From contig OZ024742.1 in NCBI GenBank assembly GCA_964016885.1, positions 241,614,001 to 241,678,000 of the forward strand: 64,000 nucleotides of DNA, read 5' to 3'. The first letter of the stretch is position 1, and every line of letters begins with the position of its first letter. The position numbers were made by a program, and so were the translations under genes. Positions 2,380 to 43,890 of the stretch are shown here, piece after piece. The notes beneath the pieces are model-generated. The model had not been told where the DNA came from, ran no database searches, and was given only the letters and a program-made list of their open reading frames with translations. Source of the stretch: Eledone cirrhosa (taxonomy: Eukaryota).

Positions 2380-2439
2380 TTTCATTCTGAGGATTGAAAG
2401 CAAAACCTTTTGCTTTTAAGAAACCACTGGTAAATGGAA
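2380..2439 (+). ncRNA. Minimal type I hammerhead ribozyme, family N, intact core
   Basis: tttcatt-CTGAGGA-ttgaaagcaaaa cc ttttgcttttaa-GAAA-cc act gg-TA-aatggaa. Confidence 0.85.
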
Positions 2440-2571
2440 TAATTGCCTTATGTTGTTTATTACATAATAATAATAATTAAGCTCTGTTGCTTACATAGAG
2501 CTCTCTTTTTTCCTGGACTTTTCCGATGGAATTACTTCATTCACACATATATATATATATATATAATTATA

Positions 2572-4297: not shown

Positions 4298-5588
4298 CAG
4301 GGTGGGGCATAAAAACTGTTACAAAATAAAATGCAAATAGTTCTTGAAAAAAAACATTTATTTCAAGATCTGACTTCAACAAATAGTAAGTAATATACTA
4401 TTAAACAATTGCACAAAAATGTATTCGAAATGCTTTCCTCTAGCGCTCACTACTGTTCGAAATCTTCTAGTAATGTCTTCGATGGCTGGACGAACAGTTT
4501 CCATGGGTATTTTCTCCCATACTTTATTCAGTTTTGATTTTAGAGTTTCAATATTTTGGCTAAGAGTAGAGCAGGCTTCACTCTCAAGAATTGACCATAA
4601 AGAAAAATCAAGAGAGTTGAGATCTGGTGATGTGGGAGGCCACTCTTACTTACTTATCCATGCAGGACAATGGTCTCTACACCACTGTTGTGTGGCTCGT
4701 CGCTCCATCTTGTTGGAGAGTCCAAATGTCATCGCCATAAACAGATGTGCACCATGGCATCAGTGTTCCTTCCAAAATATCCTTTATGTAAAATTCTTTG
4801 TTAATTGAAACTCCGTGAGGCACAAAAATCAGAGGAGACTTCCCTCTTTCAGAAATGGCTGCCCAAACCATCACTGATGCTGGTTTCTGTGTTCTGAACA
4901 CTTTTCCTACACTTGAAGGAATTGATTTGAGACTTTTTGCAAGTACTCGATCATTTTGATGATTGTGAGACTGCTGCACAGTGAATAAATTCTCATCTGT
5001 AAAGATGATGTTTTGCAGCGTGCCATCCTTGATACGGTTCAATAACAGTTTACTTCTGGAGAGCCTCTTTTCAATTGTGGCTGCAGAAAGAAGCTCCCTC
5101 TTTTGGAACTTAGAGGGTAACATCCGCAGATCATCTCGACATATCCTCTGCATAGTTCTCGGCGATGTTTCTGCTTCTTCTGCCATTTTTCTCATGGACC
5201 TTCTTTGATTACGCCTTATTTTTTCCCTCACACTTTTAACGAGTTTTGGTGTTCTTGAGGTGCGAGGGCGTCCGGATTGAGGTCTGTCTTTGGTCGAGGA
5301 AGTTTCATTAAATCGATCGATTGCCCCTTTGATCAACATTCTTTTGATCTTAAGAATTTACCCCAGTTTAAATATCTTGGGTGGGGTCAGGCCTTTTTCA
5401 TGCTTCTCTATTATGAACTTTCTTTTCAATTCTATGGACATTGCAAATTGTTAATGGAGTAATGTTCTGAAAAATAGTTAATATGGTTATAGTGCATGGA
5501 TTTGATACAAATATATTAGTTATATTAGCAACATAATGTATTTTTAAATTGATTTAAAACTTTGTAACAGGAATTATGCCCGACCCTG
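4298..5588 (-). mobile_element. Tc1/mariner superfamily DNA transposon (maT/DD37D-like), full length, degenerate
   Basis: ~28-bp TIRs cagggtggggcataaaaactgttacaaa / tttgtaacaggaattatgcccgaccctg, TA flanks, 1291 bp. Confidence 0.92.
4420..5441 (-). pseudogene. Frameshifted DDD transposase
   Basis: GRPR linker, IIFTDE, VMVWAAIS, QQDGA, then in another frame WPPTSPDLNSLDFSLWSILE; stops and frameshifts near 4650-4690 and ~5400. Confidence 0.9.
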
Positions 5589-9122: not shown

Positions 9123-9504
9123 TAATAATAATAAATTTGAAGACTAAAATCCAAAGAGGGCTTGATAAGAATAAATATATATCAAATATATAAGAACCCT
9201 AGAGCAAATATTTATTAAAATAACAGATTATCGCTATCTATTTATATAGCATGTATTGAGTTAGACTCTCAAAATAGTCTCATTACAGTAAATTAGCTCT
9301 AGGAAAAAGATATTTTCGAGCCATATATAACTGAACAAAAAGGAAAAACGAACACAGACATATATATATATGTGTGTTCAAATCGTAATGGACCAAAATC
9401 GCTAAGGTGAAAAAAATACTAACTTCAGACAATAGGGTTTGCTAGACTCAATTTAAGAATAAATTAAGAAAAATAAATACAAACCTGTATTGCGTTAACT
9501 ACCA

Positions 9505-9577
9505 TCACCCAGACGGTATTTGATAGAACCGTTTCGCAATGTTAGATATACCAAATTCCAGGCTCATCAGTGGGTGA
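9505..9577 (-). ncRNA. Canonical type I hammerhead ribozyme, family B, intact core
   Basis: tcaccca-CTGATGA-gc...gc-GAAA-cggt tctatcaaat accg-TC-tgggtga (GUC cleavage triplet). Confidence 0.92.
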
Positions 9578-9861
9578 AGAAATTAGTATCCTCCTCACTT
9601 CTAAATCAAATACTTCTAACTCAATACATGCTTTTGATATTTTCGGCTCCGTTAATTTGTAGAGCTATTTCAAATGTCGTGTAGACTCGGCTGCTATTTT
9701 TAGTGGTGTAAGTCTGCGCGACACGCTAAGTTCGGGAACCATGTGCGTTATATATATATACGCACAATTTCCAGTTTTCTATTTGATTTAGAAGTGAGGA
9801 GGATACTAATTTCTTCACCCACTGATGAGCCTGGAATTTGGTATATCTCTTCACAAATAAT

Positions 9862-22937: not shown

Positions 22938-23333
22938 TATAAAGTATGTCCATAGAATCATTTGATAATATATATACACCATTTCCTCTCCCAATTAGCA
23001 TAATTGACCACACAAAAAATCAATTAGACCAGGCTTTAAGATTAAAAGGTATCTATGAAGAAATAGTAGTTAAATAAACTACAGCAATCTCATCGCGATC
23101 AACCGCCTTAGAATATTTACCCAACATTTCAACAGCACGTGGAAATCGATTAAATATACCGTCAACCATACACAATTAGGTATAAAATTAAAGTTAGAAG
23201 AACAAAATGCATATACACATACCAGGATCACGTTTCTACCCTAGGGTTTCGTTCGCTTTCGGAAATATCCTATTAAGGATAAAATCTCGAGCTTCGAACT
23301 CGTCAGGAAACAAACTCATTTGGACAAAGTATG

Positions 23334-33731: not shown

Positions 33732-33760
33732 AACACAACTCCAGGTGTCTAGTACAGGTA

Positions 33761-34737
33761 ATCGATTACCTGTACTAGACACAGAGCTCTGGTTAGATAC
33801 CATTAACAACCAAAAACAAATCCTCCATTCCCATTATGCCAAACCCATGACTTCCAAACATCTGATCCACCGAAACTCGGCCATTTCGGACCATACCAAA
33901 ATCAACATACTGATTGCGGATTTGGTACGGGTGATGAGAAATGTGTCCCGCATGTGCAACCCCGAAGAACTAGAGAGACACATACAACACTTCATCCACC
34001 GTATGCAGTTCTCTGGCTACAATCAGAGAGATAGAATCAGAGTGTATAGAGGAGCCAGAACCAAATGGGAAAAAATGGTAAATAATGACATAAATGGGAC
34101 CTGCCCCTTGTATAGGAGCAAATTTTGGAATAGAATAGAAAGAACTAGGAACAAGGCTAATAGAATAAACTCATGGTATGATAGCAATAAATACCAGAGT
34201 GTAATGTTCATCGATACAACCCCTAGAGGCGAACTAGCCTACAAATTTAGAAGGGCCCTAAATAAACATAAACTCAATATTAAGATAGTAGAAAGACCAG
34301 GTACCTCCGTAAAAACACTTATTAGCAAGACATACCCTTTCCAAAGACCCTTATGTATAGATAAGAAATGTATAACCTGTAAAATAAGCCCCCATATTAA
34401 CTGTAAAACTAGAAATGTAGTGTATAGCATAAGATGTACTGAAGGACAATGTAGAAACAAAAATATAGTGTACATAGGTGAGACAGCTCGTAGTATAGGG
34501 GAACGGATAAATGAACACTGGCGAGACCTTCAAGATAATAAAGAATCATCTGTACTCTACCAACATGCTAAGATAGAACACAAGGGTGAATTAGAGAACA
34601 TAGAAATAAAAATAGAATCTACACACAGAAAAGATGCAATGTTTAGACAAATTACAGAGGCAATAAACATAAAAGAATTACAACCAAAATTAAATAGAAA
34701 ATATGAGTGGAACAGCAACATCACAACTTACAATTAA
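33761..34737 (+). pseudogene. 5'-truncated Penelope-like element ORF (PLE-A): RT C-terminus/thumb, Cys-rich linker and GIY-YIG endonuclease (Neptune/Nematis-like), frame uninterrupted
   Basis: LPVLD, SGY, PLYRSKFWNR, CxxxxCxxC linker, VVY..C...YIGET.R....R..EH, H....H, RQITEAI, LNRKYEW. Confidence 0.92.
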
Positions 34738-34949
34738 GGACAAAATGAAAACACACACACACATAGAACAAACAACCAACCAATAACATGTAAATAAATA
34801 AATAAATAAACAAATAGATAAATGAACATAAACACACACAGACACCCGGATGTGGCGCATGCGCAAACTGAGCACACAACACACACACAGAAACAAAATG
34901 GCGTAGGACAGAACAAAGGAGAGGCACGGAGACAAAGAAAGGAATCCCC

Positions 34950-34994
34950 AGTCACTGAAGAGGTCACAGAGTGTGTGACGAAAGGACTATGACT
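34950..34994 (+). ncRNA. Minimal type I hammerhead ribozyme in the PLE-A 3'UTR, intact core
   Basis: agtca-CTGAAGA-g gtcaca gagtg tgtgac-GAAA-ggac-TA-tgact. Confidence 0.88.
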
Positions 34995-35159
34995 ATATAT
35001 AAACAACTATCTGGTTGTGGAACCAACCAACCAACCAGAAATTTATAAGTTTATAAATTTGTAAATTTATAAATATATAATAAATTGAAGTGAAACCAAC
35101 TGGTGCGTGTGTTTCTTATTGGCAACATGACCCTCCCAAAGTATAACAATATATATATA

Positions 35160-35247
<88 letters not shown>

Positions 35248-38096: not shown

Positions 38097-38708
38097 CATT
38101 GAGTAGGGGTGAGGATAGCCTCACCTATATTTAAATTTAAAACCTAATGTCAGAGTTTATAGAGACTATAAAACTCACCCCTCAACAACACTGTAATTTA
38201 ACTTGTAACATCATGTAAAAACATCATGTAAAATATGTAGAAAAAATATCTATAAACAGTAATTCAAATGTTTATAGTATATTTTCCAAGGACAGATAAA
38301 TGTGTAAATTTATTGTATTAAAATCACAACTTGAATTTTTAATGTGATGCAGTAGTAGTGCTGTTATTTAACTTTTCCAAAATGTCTTGTTGATGTGGTT
38401 TTATGTCAAATTTCTGATGCACTATAATTTTCAGTCACTCATATACTGGCAATTGGCCTCCGGAATAAATTTACCAATATTCCGTTTTGTAGAAGTATAC
38501 GTAAACCAGTAAAATTACACGCAATGACATACACCCATATATACACACACACACGCACATATATATATTTATATGTGTATATATATATATCTATGGATGT
38601 ACGTACAGACAGACACACACATACAGAGACTCACAGACACACACCTATATATATATATTGTGTATATATATATACATAGGTGTTTGTGTATATATATATA
38701 TATATATA

Positions 38709-39542
38709 TTATAATTTAAAAAATATATGATCAACACTACTGTGTTTTTTTTTGCAAAATGACAATAATTTTTTAGCCAGATAGAAATACCTTAATTCAA
38801 GTACATATAGTCCGTCTGTATCGATCTAGAGAATATTAAATATTAAATCTATACTTACAGACGTAAAATGGCAACTGCCTGGTGCCTAGACAAGTTTAAA
38901 TTTCAAAATTCAAACCTTTTCAGCAGATCGGGCGGAACTTCAAAACATAAACCTGTTTCACAAGGGATGTTATACTAATGAAATAATTAATTAATTACGG
39001 AACAACTATTTATAAAATAATTATTAGTGAAGTAATCAATTTTCTGTGATCTTCAGTAGGCACCCAGAAATTAAAATCACTTCTCCTAAGATAATATCTT
39101 AAGACTGATCTGTCGCAAGCCTAATACATGTGCTTTTGCACACGACCTTCTCAGCATTCTGGCTCATATCCATGGCGCTAGAAATAGCAGCCGTGAATAT
39201 GTGATTATGAATTCAGCTCAACCGTAGGAGCAGATTAATTTCAGTTTAGTAGTCAGTTACAAATATTAAGCTCTAAGAAAATACTTCTGAGCATTACATT
39301 ATAATTTAAAAAAATATATGATCAACACTACTGTGATTTTTTTGCAAAATGACAATAATTTTTTAGCCAGATAGAAATACCTTAATTCAAGTACATATAG
39401 TCCGTCTGTATCGATCTAGAGAATATTAAATATTAAATCTATACTTACAGACGTAAAATGGCAACTGCCTGGTGCCTAGACAAGTTTAAATTTCAAAATT
39501 CAAACCTTTTCAGCAGATCGGGCGGAACTTCAAAACATAAAC

Positions 39543-39546
<4 letters not shown>
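38709..39546 (-). mobile_element. Family L element: ~590-nt monomer with ~245-nt terminal direct repeat, within (TA)n
   Basis: 38711-38956 is nearly identical to 39301-39546. Confidence 0.88.
38881..39064 (-). ncRNA. Extended type I hammerhead with large loops II and III, family L
   Basis: ggtgccta-CTGAAGA-(~90 nt)-GAAA-caggttta (~50 nt) taaacttg-TC-taggcacc. Confidence 0.78.
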
Positions 39547-39610
<64 letters not shown>

Positions 39611-42808: not shown

Positions 42809-43890
42809 TATATATTACACAAAGAGAAATGTGTTACACAGTGAGAAGTGTGTAAAGAATTATTACAAGTGATTTTACCGTTACTGTATAGGGAACAATA
42901 TCTACAGGTAAGCAATTAAATAGAAAAAAAACCAGATCAGAATCAAATCTCTGGATTGGAATTTTAAATCACAAACCTTATAACTATATTTTGCTGATAC
43001 GAACCTAGTTTTTCGTTTCACCATTTATATGTGTCACCACCTATATGTGTAGAATAACAGTCCAACATGGATCATCAGTCAGCAAAATGCGAGACTGAAT
43101 CCTGCACATCTAACCTTCATAGCTAGAGAGATTGCAAATAGACACGCTGGCCAGAGTGGGCGAAATCACGTGTTATTCGAATCAAATAACGGCTCTCATG
43201 GATTGGGGAGGATGCTAGAAAGTACAGCCCAACCATGCGAATTATTAGCTCAACAATTTGGAGCTCATTAATTATACAAAAATCGGAATTAAGAGTATTC
43301 CGCAGTTCACTGTAATAATAATAATAATAATAGTATTATTAGCTCAAAGAAGAATAGAGAATTTCCTTCCGAGCTCAAATGCAAGTATATATTACACAAA
43401 GAGAAATGTGTTACACAGTGAGAAGTGTGTAAAGAATTATTACAAGTAATTTTACCGTTACTGTATAGGGAACAATATCTACAGGTAAGCAATTAAATAG
43501 AAAAAAACCAGATCAGAATCAAATCTCTGTTATTCTACACATATAGGTGGTGACACATATAAGTGGTGAAACGAAGCTAGGGTCGTATCAGCAAAATATA
43601 GTTATAAGGTTTGTGATTTAAAATTCCAATCCAGAGATTTGATTCTGATCTGGTTTTTTTCTATTTAATTGCTAACCTGTAGATATTGTTCTCTGTACAG
43701 TTACGGTAAAATCACTTGTAATAATTCTTTACACACTTCTCACTGTGTAACACATTTCTCTTTGTGTAATATATACTTACATTTGAGCTCAGAAGGAAAT
43801 TCTCTATTCTTCTTTGAGCTAATAATACTATTATTATTATTATTATTATTACAGTGAACTGCGGAATACTCTTAATTCCGATTTTTGTAT
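42806..43890. mobile_element. Family F element: 577-nt monomer plus ~147-nt redundancy plus inverted arm
   Basis: 42806-42953 is repeated at 43383-43529; 43527-43890 is inverted; (TA)n on both sides. Confidence 0.92.
42988..43088 (-). ncRNA. Type I hammerhead ribozyme, family F, intact core
   Basis: ttttgctga-CTGATGA-t ccat...atgg t-GAAA-cgaa..ttcg-TA-tcagcaaaa. Confidence 0.88.

What the first reader, a model, noticed from the sequence alone, without database searches (positions are those of the whole stretch)
38709..39546. Family L: unusually large hammerhead inside an LTR-like 590-nt unit
Seen: perfect 8-bp stem I, intact CUGAAGA, GAAA, 8-bp stem III and GUC spread over 184 nt, with ~90-nt and ~50-nt loops. 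The ~245-nt direct repeats differ only by a few changes near homopolymer runs, so the insertion is young. The repeat extends upstream of the cleavage site into stem III. Length-limited HHR searches would miss it. Stem II pairing is the weakest part.
Basis: partly seen in the sequence, partly recalled or inferred. Interest (0 to 1): 0.7.

Follow-up and report, generated by a model that had tools for sequence, protein, structure and literature searches.

The report
Pseudoknotted, enlarged hammerhead in animal retrozyme
This is one young copy of a non-coding jumping repeat of a known kind; its predicted self-cutting RNA grew from about 80 to 184 bases by short duplications while keeping an extra helix that likely braces it, and the textbook core seen in this copy is a rare, likely chance variant of a family whose cores are mostly non-standard.

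Summary
The motif is real. On the minus strand, a 184-nt type I hammerhead sits in a 590-nt unit inserted as 1.4 units into (TA)n. Sister subfamilies show three compensatory changes in stem I, G-C/A-U/U·U at 10.1:11.1 and a C3-G8/U3-A8 swap.

(1) It is not LTR-like. It is a non-LTR retrozyme with Penelope-type ends: two fixed 3' ends and two-armed insertions.
(2) The 'intact CUGAAGA' occurs in 3 of 109 long-loop copies and is likely CpG decay of CCGAAGA; the family carries CCGAAGA, UUGAAAA or CCGUAGA.
(3) The loops are structured. Helix III is a 67-nt hairpin. Loop II starts with a ~20-nt strand that pairs with the bases 5' of stem I (helix P, a pseudoknot), kept in relatives only ~60% alike.

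A tree shows stepwise growth: 78, 136, 154, 184 nt. Cutting is not shown. 5' ends pile up at the cut site in this subfamily group but not in sisters, and subfamilies lacking U4 or A6 still spread. No autonomous partner was found. This scan reported what is probably the same 591-bp family on other DNA.

The parts
38705..39547 (-). Whole insertion: 1.42 units of a 590-nt retrozyme in a (TA)n tract; 5' end inside helix III, 3' end at preferred site A
38889..39478 (-). One unit from predicted cut site to predicted cut site (590 nt; the putative RNA monomer or circle)
39299..39546 (-). 5' partial copy (helix III, first cut site, 3' part of unit); lacks CUGAAGA, stem II and GAA, so it is not a complete ribozyme
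39065..39085 (-). 5' arm of helix P, directly before stem I
39057..39064 (-). Stem I, 5' strand
39050..39056 (-). Core positions 3-9, CUGAAGA in this copy; CCGAAGA in its subfamily
39047..39049 (-). Stem II, 5' strand (U10.1, C10.2, A10.3)
39027..39046 (-). 3' arm of helix P, directly after stem II
38979..39026 (-). 48-nt AU-rich insert in loop II, absent from subfamilies B and C, 18 nt in D; built of repeats of the ~15-nt motif that ends the P arm
38960..38962 (-). Stem II, 3' strand (U11.3, G11.2, U11.1)
38956..38959 (-). Core G12 A13 A14 A15.1
38890..38956 (-). Helix III, 67-nt hairpin of about 21 pairs
38889..38889 (-). C17; predicted cut follows it (38889/38888)
   Evidence: 5' junctions of other copies
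38881..38888 (-). Stem I, 3' strand
39270..39308 (-). Module 1: preferred 3' end A (39308-39298) followed by a GCUC/GAGC hairpin (39292-39270); candidate reverse-transcription start (inferred)
39216..39248 (-). Module 2: preferred 3' end B (39248-39238) followed by a second GCUC/GAGC hairpin (39231-39216); candidate second start (inferred)

Best explanation
This is a young copy of a non-coding non-LTR retrozyme, likely mobilised by a Penelope-like element, whose type I hammerhead fold is kept by compensatory changes, is likely braced by a long pseudoknot (helix P), and is predicted to cut only slowly in this subfamily. Steps: (1, inferred) a longer-than-unit RNA is transcribed from a tandem copy. 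(2, pairing shown by comparison, folding order inferred) helix P forms first as a hairpin whose 18-nt loop holds the 5' strand of stem I, the core and the 5' strand of stem II; the downstream strands then complete stems II, III and I. P ties the far ends of stems I and II together in place of the usual loop-loop contact. (3, duplications shown, tolerance inferred) with P and a long helix III carrying the fold, loop II and helix III took up short tandem duplications, which is why the motif is large. (4, inferred) some RNA is cut at C17 and may be circularised, but much stays uncut. (5, footprint shown, enzyme inferred) a borrowed Penelope-type reverse transcriptase/endonuclease nicks (TA)n, starts at one of two internal sites next to GCUC/GAGC hairpins, often on both strands, and runs through the cut site for more than one unit. 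This gives partial tandems like this one.
For: Fold: stem I has 3 pairs changed on both sides and 98.7% of cells paired; 10.1:11.1 is G-C or A-U where paired; slid controls reach at most 48.8% paired (29 rows). The 3:8 pair is U-A 20, C-G 5, U-G 4 of 29. Helix P: -16.9 kcal/mol in the window, p = 0.004 against 500 shuffles; 93.5% and 96.9% of cells paired in subfamilies A-D; p <= 0.012 in 11 of 15 copies of diverged families with different arm sequences and in 2 of 2 matched copies of another. Growth: tree of 27 rows built without domains II and III nests 184-nt forms within 154-nt, within 136-nt forms, with 78-79-nt forms outside. Mobilisation: 125 of 141 arms end at three fixed sites; 43 of 93 loci are two-armed, 37 of them pairing site A with B or C. 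This matches two internal starts and extension of both strands by a purified Penelope-like protein (PMC11167929). Cutting: 5 of 114 arms begin at unit positions 1-3 against 0.64 expected, P = 5e-4; 9 of 15 genome-wide pattern hits are true junctions exactly at the cut site.
Against: No RNA or cleavage data. A TATAT site at unit position 80 collects as many 5' ends (7) as the cut site, so microhomology with (TA)n shapes these counts; a stall at the base of helix III would map within a base of the cut site. In sister subfamilies whose cut is followed by CA, only 3 of 30 examined hits were junctions, among about 758 copies, near the baseline. Subfamilies with U4C, U4A or A6U have spread. Within A-D, helix P has only 1 of 18 pairs changed on both sides, and RNAalifold on a sequence-only alignment across families predicted no pairs. 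In the window copy the minimum-energy fold does not contain P and traps G12-A13. No autonomous element with a homologous end was found.
Confidence: 0.65

Rival explanations
1. The hammerhead of the youngest subfamilies is vestigial. The element spreads from uncut tandem transcripts, and the fold is kept for RNA stability or protein binding, or is only inherited.
For: CCGUAGA (12) and CCGUUGA (4) of 109 copies lack A6; U4 was replaced in three separate amplified lineages. 66 of 141 arms exceed one unit and 29 cross the cut site twice (sample biased to long copies). No clear excess of cut-site junctions in B/C/I. Hammerhead mutants did not affect insertion by a Penelope-like protein in vitro (PMC11167929). 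8 of 9 predicted frog retrozymes did not cut in vitro (bioRxiv 10.64898/2026.07.22.740005).
Against: The U3-A8 to C3-G8 compensation happened on the branch to the youngest subfamily. G5, A9, G12-A14, A15.1-U16.1 are kept in all subfamilies. Cut-site junctions occur in copies with CCGAAGA (L029, L092, L056) and with UUGAAAA (L024, L097, L105). U4C, U3-A8 and U10.1·U11.1 are each reported as active (PMC3088659).
Confidence: 0.25
2. Helix P is an off-switch or a rod-like element of the circular RNA, not part of the active fold. It forms early and must open, or simply coexists, when the ribozyme cuts.
For: P is in the minimum-energy fold of subfamily B, where stem I is not formed. It abuts stems I and II with no linker, which may strain the junction; this could not be modelled here.
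Against: P leaves the core and both stem strands unpaired in its loop. The same link, from the strand after 10.x to the side of stem I, is the rate-enhancing pseudoknot of other hammerheads (PMC3088659 section 7). A rough sum without pseudoknot penalty brings the active fold plus P from 2.7-18.6 above the minimum energy to within -3.7 to +5.7 kcal/mol of it in 7 of 7 cases.
Confidence: 0.25
3. An LTR-type retrozyme or TRIM-like element with 245-nt LTRs.
For: Two near-identical direct repeats flank a 340-nt middle in this one copy.
Against: Repeat length and 5' end differ from copy to copy, arrays reach about 5 units, 43 of 93 loci have inverted arms, ends lie in (TA)n, and the hammerhead is type I. 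LTR retrozymes carry type III motifs and 4-bp target duplications (bioRxiv preprint).
Confidence: 0.02

Closest known systems
Metazoan non-LTR retrozymes (Cervera and de la Peña 2020, PMC7229834: passages and sections 14, 17 read; Li, Clavereau and Pollet 2026, bioRxiv 10.64898/2026.07.22.740005: parts 1-3 of 5 read)
   Same: Non-coding, AT-rich tandem unit with one type I hammerhead per unit; dispersed copies; unit length inside the 51-972 bp range of the preprint; U·U at the base of helix II as in axolotl HHR_Amex2.
   Different: Helix III is a 67-nt hairpin, not 1-2 pairs; domain II is up to 90 nt; a ~20-pair helix P replaces the loop 1/loop 2 contact; cores are mostly non-canonical; circular RNA is not shown here.
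Pseudoknotted hammerheads and core variants (Perreault et al. 2011, PMC3088659: passages and sections 7, 8 read; supplements not read)
   Same: A helix joins the strand leaving stem II to the stem I side; stem II is very short; U3-A8, U4C and U10.1·U11.1 are known natural variants.
   Different: The tested pseudoknot there is 6 pairs, in a metagenomic type II motif, and repetitive type I motifs were left out of that stem-length analysis. Here it is about 18-20 pairs in an animal type I motif inside a retroelement.
Hammerheads in pseudo-LTRs of Penelope-like elements (Cervera and de la Peña 2014, PMC4209133: parts 1-2 of 4 read; Craig et al. 2021, PMC8557442: passages; Frangieh et al. 2024, PMC11167929: parts 1-2 of 4 read)
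   Same: Partial tandems, inverted 5'-truncated arm, (TA)n targets, two internal 3' ends, U3-A8 variant, read-through of the cut site.
   Different: No ORF; the ribozyme is extended and not minimal; the two ends are about 60 nt apart, not 30-40; no homologous autonomous element was found.
Discontinuous Clec2 hammerhead of mammals (seen only as a passage of review PMC6765202)
   Same: A hammerhead can work with a large insert between its parts.
   Different: There the insert is several hundred bases in an mRNA 3' UTR; here the inserts are structured and lie in a mobile unit. Size alone is therefore not new.

Membership tests
Type I hammerhead ribozyme | Three helices round the core, helix I open | tested here: met
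   stems I, II, III in register, with changes on both sides in each.
Type I hammerhead ribozyme | Conserved core C3 U4 G5 A6 N7 G8 A9, G12 A13 A14, A15.1-U16.1, H17 | tested here: inconclusive
   Met in this copy. In the family 3 of 109 long-loop copies are canonical; most carry U3-A8 or U4C (published active variants), 16 lack A6.
Type I hammerhead ribozyme | [quoted passage not shown] | tested here: inconclusive
   Helix P is a candidate; its presence in the active fold is not shown.
Type I hammerhead ribozyme | Self-cleavage 3' of position 17 | not testable with these tools
   Indirect only: junction excess in subfamily group A, none clear in B/C/I.
Non-LTR retrozyme | Tandem or partial-tandem non-coding unit with a type I hammerhead per unit | tested here: met
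   the only ORFs of 40 aa or more are 3 that run into the flanking microsatellites.
Non-LTR retrozyme | Dispersed, mobile copies | tested here: met
   192 exact matches of an 18-mer after the cut site, 0 for the reversed control; 727 for the sister pattern.
Non-LTR retrozyme | Expressed as linear and circular RNA monomers | not testable with these tools
   No RNA holder listed; the test on private variants shared between units was inconclusive.
Non-autonomous Penelope-like element | Partial tandem, inverted 5'-truncated arm, two internal 3' ends, AT-rich target | tested here: met
   a GIY-YIG-like element of this genome shows the same two-end pattern in (TA)n.
Non-autonomous Penelope-like element | Sequence shared with the pseudo-LTR of an autonomous partner | tested here: inconclusive
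   No match to the 3' regions of the 30 loci or of 8 other fragments; only a few of the genome's families were sampled.
LTR retrozyme / TRIM | Fixed LTR boundaries, type III hammerhead, 4-bp target duplication | tested here: not met
   Variable boundaries, arrays and inversions, type I motif; target duplications cannot be read in (TA)n.

The most novel reading that the evidence does not exclude
A widespread animal hammerhead architecture has been overlooked: a type I ribozyme assembled inside the loop of a ~20-pair hairpin. This brace frees loop II and helix III to grow by duplication and lets the core lose U4 repeatedly (U4C twice, U4A once) while still cutting, so successful retrozyme lineages tune cutting down to favour longer-than-unit templates. 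The same flank-to-loop pairing shows in several other hammerhead families of this genome.
Probability: 0.3. Interest if true: 0.72.

Novelty: new variant of a known kind. Interest (0 to 1): 0.5.

Why it matters
The element class is known, and size alone has precedent. What is useful is a natural series in one genome, from a compact canonical 78-nt hammerhead to a 184-nt one with a drifting core, all sharing one long extra helix. It gives ready-made constructs for two open questions: which tertiary brace animal type I hammerheads without the usual loop contact use (mussel retrozymes are described as lacking it, PMC7229834 section 14), and whether cutting is needed at all for retrozymes to spread. 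It also shows why length-limited and core-strict searches undercount animal hammerheads.

Tried and rejected
Rfam scan: no hammerhead among the best 150 of 247 listed matches, which were nearly all microRNA models, apparently on microsatellites.

RNA evidence: no RNA holder listed. The three contig runs come from one sample and only confirm the subfamily variants.

Autonomous partner: Penelope-type ORF fragments lie near several copies but behind (TA)n tracts, read as shared targets. Their 3' regions carry other hammerheads and no match to this family.

RNAalifold on 19 rows across families gave 0 pairs, because the alignment slides the two arms of P out of register.

Circle versus linear template: 21 private variants shared between passes against 152 single ones in 91 insertions, with no A-to-G excess; inconclusive.

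Cut-site junctions in sister subfamilies: about baseline.

Helix P was not significant in 3 of 15 diverged copies (L276, L295, L237) or in the L059, L104, L075 and window 23306 motifs. The strong L008 value is probably an inversion junction and was set aside.

The bacterial promoter scan is not informative for this host.

Literature searches. None listed a paper on long pseudoknots in animal type I retrozyme hammerheads. One search was too loose to use, and one search gave nothing on stem lengths of the crystallised pseudoknot hammerhead. No supplements were read; those of PMC3088659, PMC8557442 and PMC7229834 may hold related motifs.

Full report
Observation. The window lies in a 3.0-Gb genome rich in microsatellites. 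The host is an animal by inference; earlier notes of this scan call it a cephalopod, which I did not test. On the minus strand the region holds stem I (39064-39057 with 38888-38881, 8 of 8 pairs), CUGAAGA (39056-39050), GAAA (38959-38956) and GUC ending at 38889, 184 nt in all. A descriptor asking for 8 pairs in stems I and III finds 1 hit in the window and 0 in 200 local shuffles; the region folds with z = -3.99. The repeats 38709-38956 and 39299-39546 are 590 apart and differ by 1 substitution and 2 one-base indels. Both ends run into (TA)n.

The family. An 18-mer after the cut site has 192 exact matches in the genome and 0 for the reversed control. I mapped 109 fetched loci on the unit; 30 were chosen for holding a full unit, most others for holding the 18-mer, and some overlap. 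Copies are partial tandems of variable length, up to about 5 units. Of 141 arms, 73 end at site A (unit 168-187), 43 at site B (229-245), 9 at a minor site and 16 elsewhere. 43 of 93 loci have two opposed arms; 29 pair A with B, 8 pair A with the minor site, 2 are A with A (merging of overlapping loci is imperfect). Sites A and B each precede a GCUC/GAGC hairpin in two similar modules. A purified Penelope-like protein starts at two internal sites, extends both strands, prefers AT-rich DNA and does not need hammerhead cleavage (PMC11167929, parts 1-2 of 4). Partial tandems, inverted arms and (TA)n bias are described for these elements (PMC8557442, passages). So the element is a non-LTR retrozyme with a Penelope footprint, not an LTR element. 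The partner was not found.

The core. Among 109 distinct long-loop hammerheads with an intact stem I anchor (of 182 extracted), cores are CCGAAGA 45, UUGAAAA 32, CCGUAGA 12, UUGAGAA 8, CCGUUGA 4, CUGAAGA 3, CCAAAGA 2, others 3. The window's nearest relatives have C at position 4, and one dimer has CUG in one unit and CCG in the other. CCAAAGA is the opposite-strand product of the same CpG. The canonical core here is therefore most likely a post-insertion CpG change (inference). U4 is replaced in three amplified lineages: CCGAAGA, CCGAUGA and CAGAAGA. U3-A8, U4C and U10.1·U11.1 are published active variants (PMC3088659 passages and section 8; PMC4209133; PMC7229834).

The fold is under selection. 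Sister subfamilies were found by searching with a diverged copy and with shared motifs. On 29 hand-picked rows, stem I has 3 pairs changed on both sides and 98.7% of cells paired. Position 10.1:11.1 is G-C in 10 rows, A-U in 3 and unpaired in 16. Helix III has 93.8% paired. The whole structure has 94.3% paired against at most 48.8% when slid. The rows are related, so cells overstate independent events.

The large loops are structured. Helix III is a 67-nt hairpin. Relatives have 17-37 nt versions, growing in 7-nt steps in one subfamily. Domain II is 28-37 nt in the compact families, 41-44 in B and C, 60 in D and 90 in A; the added bases repeat a ~15-nt motif. A tree of 27 chosen rows, built on flanks without domains II and III and rooted at the midpoint, is a ladder: compact families apart (100/100), then C, B, D, and A innermost, with 14 of 24 inner branches strongly supported. 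Total sizes are 78-79, 136, 154 and 184 nt. A compact relative lies in this same window, with its core at 9570.

Helix P. The ~21 nt just 5' of stem I pair with the ~20 nt just after stem II: -16.9 kcal/mol, p = 0.004 against 500 mononucleotide shuffles, and -4.5 for the downstream flank. In A-D its two parts are 93.5% and 96.9% paired, but only 1 of 18 pairs changes on both sides. Stronger support comes from diverged families with other arm sequences: p <= 0.012 in 11 of 15 copies, 0.04 in 1, not significant in 3, and p = 0.002 in 2 of 2 matched copies of 3 tried. These are about six families, not 17 independent tests. Of 12 further motifs tested, L014 (two copies), window 43078, window 9570 and L078 had p < 0.05 with substantial energies; L108 was marginal; L008 was set aside as a probable junction; window 2387 gave only -2.5 kcal/mol; four showed nothing. 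RNAalifold on a sequence-only alignment found no pairs. In topology P equals the rate-enhancing pseudoknot of other hammerheads, which also forms before the substrate strand binds (PMC3088659 section 7), but it is three times longer. In the window copy the minimum-energy fold lacks P. The active fold is 7.7 kcal/mol above the minimum without P and about 2 above with it, by a rough sum that ignores pseudoknot cost.

Does it cut? For: 5 of 114 arms from loci on the three largest contigs start at unit positions 1-3 against 0.64 expected (P = 5e-4); 7 of 141 against 0.79 in all. Genome-wide, of 15 hits for the cut-site 14-mer not preceded by C, 9 are true junctions, 2 are point variants and 4 are unrelated. 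Against: a TATAT site at position 80 collects 7 ends, so microhomology matters, although the mean over 63 other TA sites is 0.6% against 4.6% at the cut site. A stall at the foot of helix III would map within one base. In sisters whose cut is followed by CA, 3 of 30 examined hits (of 31) are junctions among about 758 copies, against roughly 1.5 expected from the group A baseline (my arithmetic). Sixteen copies lacking A6 belong to an amplified subfamily. Slow or partial cutting fits best; a vestigial ribozyme in the youngest branch is not excluded.

Novelty. Retrozymes and their link to Penelope-like elements are in print (PMC7229834; bioRxiv 10.64898/2026.07.22.740005, parts 1-3 of 5). Earlier notes of this scan describe a 591-595-bp U3-A8 retrozyme with two-armed insertions on other DNA of this genome, probably this family; a look-up by sequence returned nothing, so identity is not confirmed. 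I consulted them after reaching these readings. I found no note or paper on helix P, the size ladder or the repeated loss of U4; supplements were not read. Verdict: a new variant of a known kind, interest 0.5.

Noticed in passing
window 9250-9840: A distant member of the same superfamily with a compact canonical hammerhead (core at 9570, minus strand), the same end modules, a short helix P and an inverted arm.
   Followed up: partly
window 42990-43115 (minus, core 43078): Another type I hammerhead: 10-pair stem I, U·U at 10.1:11.1, 52-nt domain II, and flank-to-loop pairing of -18.1 kcal/mol (p = 0.016).
   Followed up: partly
window 23230-23312 (minus, core 23306) and 2380-2440 (plus, core 2387): Two more hammerhead-like motifs with long stem II and short helix III; no support for helix P.
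   Followed up: no
window 33733-35230 (plus): 3' part of a Penelope-like element: 334-aa open frame with a GIY-YIG match just under the Pfam cut-off (E = 1.4e-4), and a minimal hammerhead in its 3' region; close relatives (about 90% aa identity among copies) lie in several fetched loci.
   Followed up: partly
L305-L334: Abundant GIY-YIG-like element (150 best hits at 80-88% aa identity apart from the query itself) whose copies end at two sites about 66 nt apart in (TA)n, and whose hammerhead also has U·U at 10.1:11.1; not homologous to this family.
   Followed up: partly
L341, L346 and subfamily A1 (e.g. L002): The change from UU to CC at core positions 3-4, with G8, appears in two separate lineages; why U4C accompanies the return to C3-G8 is unexplained.
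   Followed up: no
L335, L349, L351, L357-L360: An amplified sister subfamily has core CAGAAGA (U4A) and a helix III that varies from 17 to 37 nt in 7-nt steps.
   Followed up: partly
L021/L022/L026/L027 (contig C1714): A five-unit array whose private variants partly alternate between units, suggesting later local duplication of a dimer.
   Followed up: no
L014:~700 (+), L059:~1138 (+), L078:~2184 (+), L104:~2216 (+), L108:~445 (+): Five further hammerhead families with enlarged domain II (35-77 nt) and helix III (18-38 nt) turned up by chance beside copies of this family.
   Followed up: partly
window 4680-5357 (minus): 226-aa open frame resembling a Tc1/mariner transposase N-terminus (resemblance recalled, not tested).
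   Followed up: no
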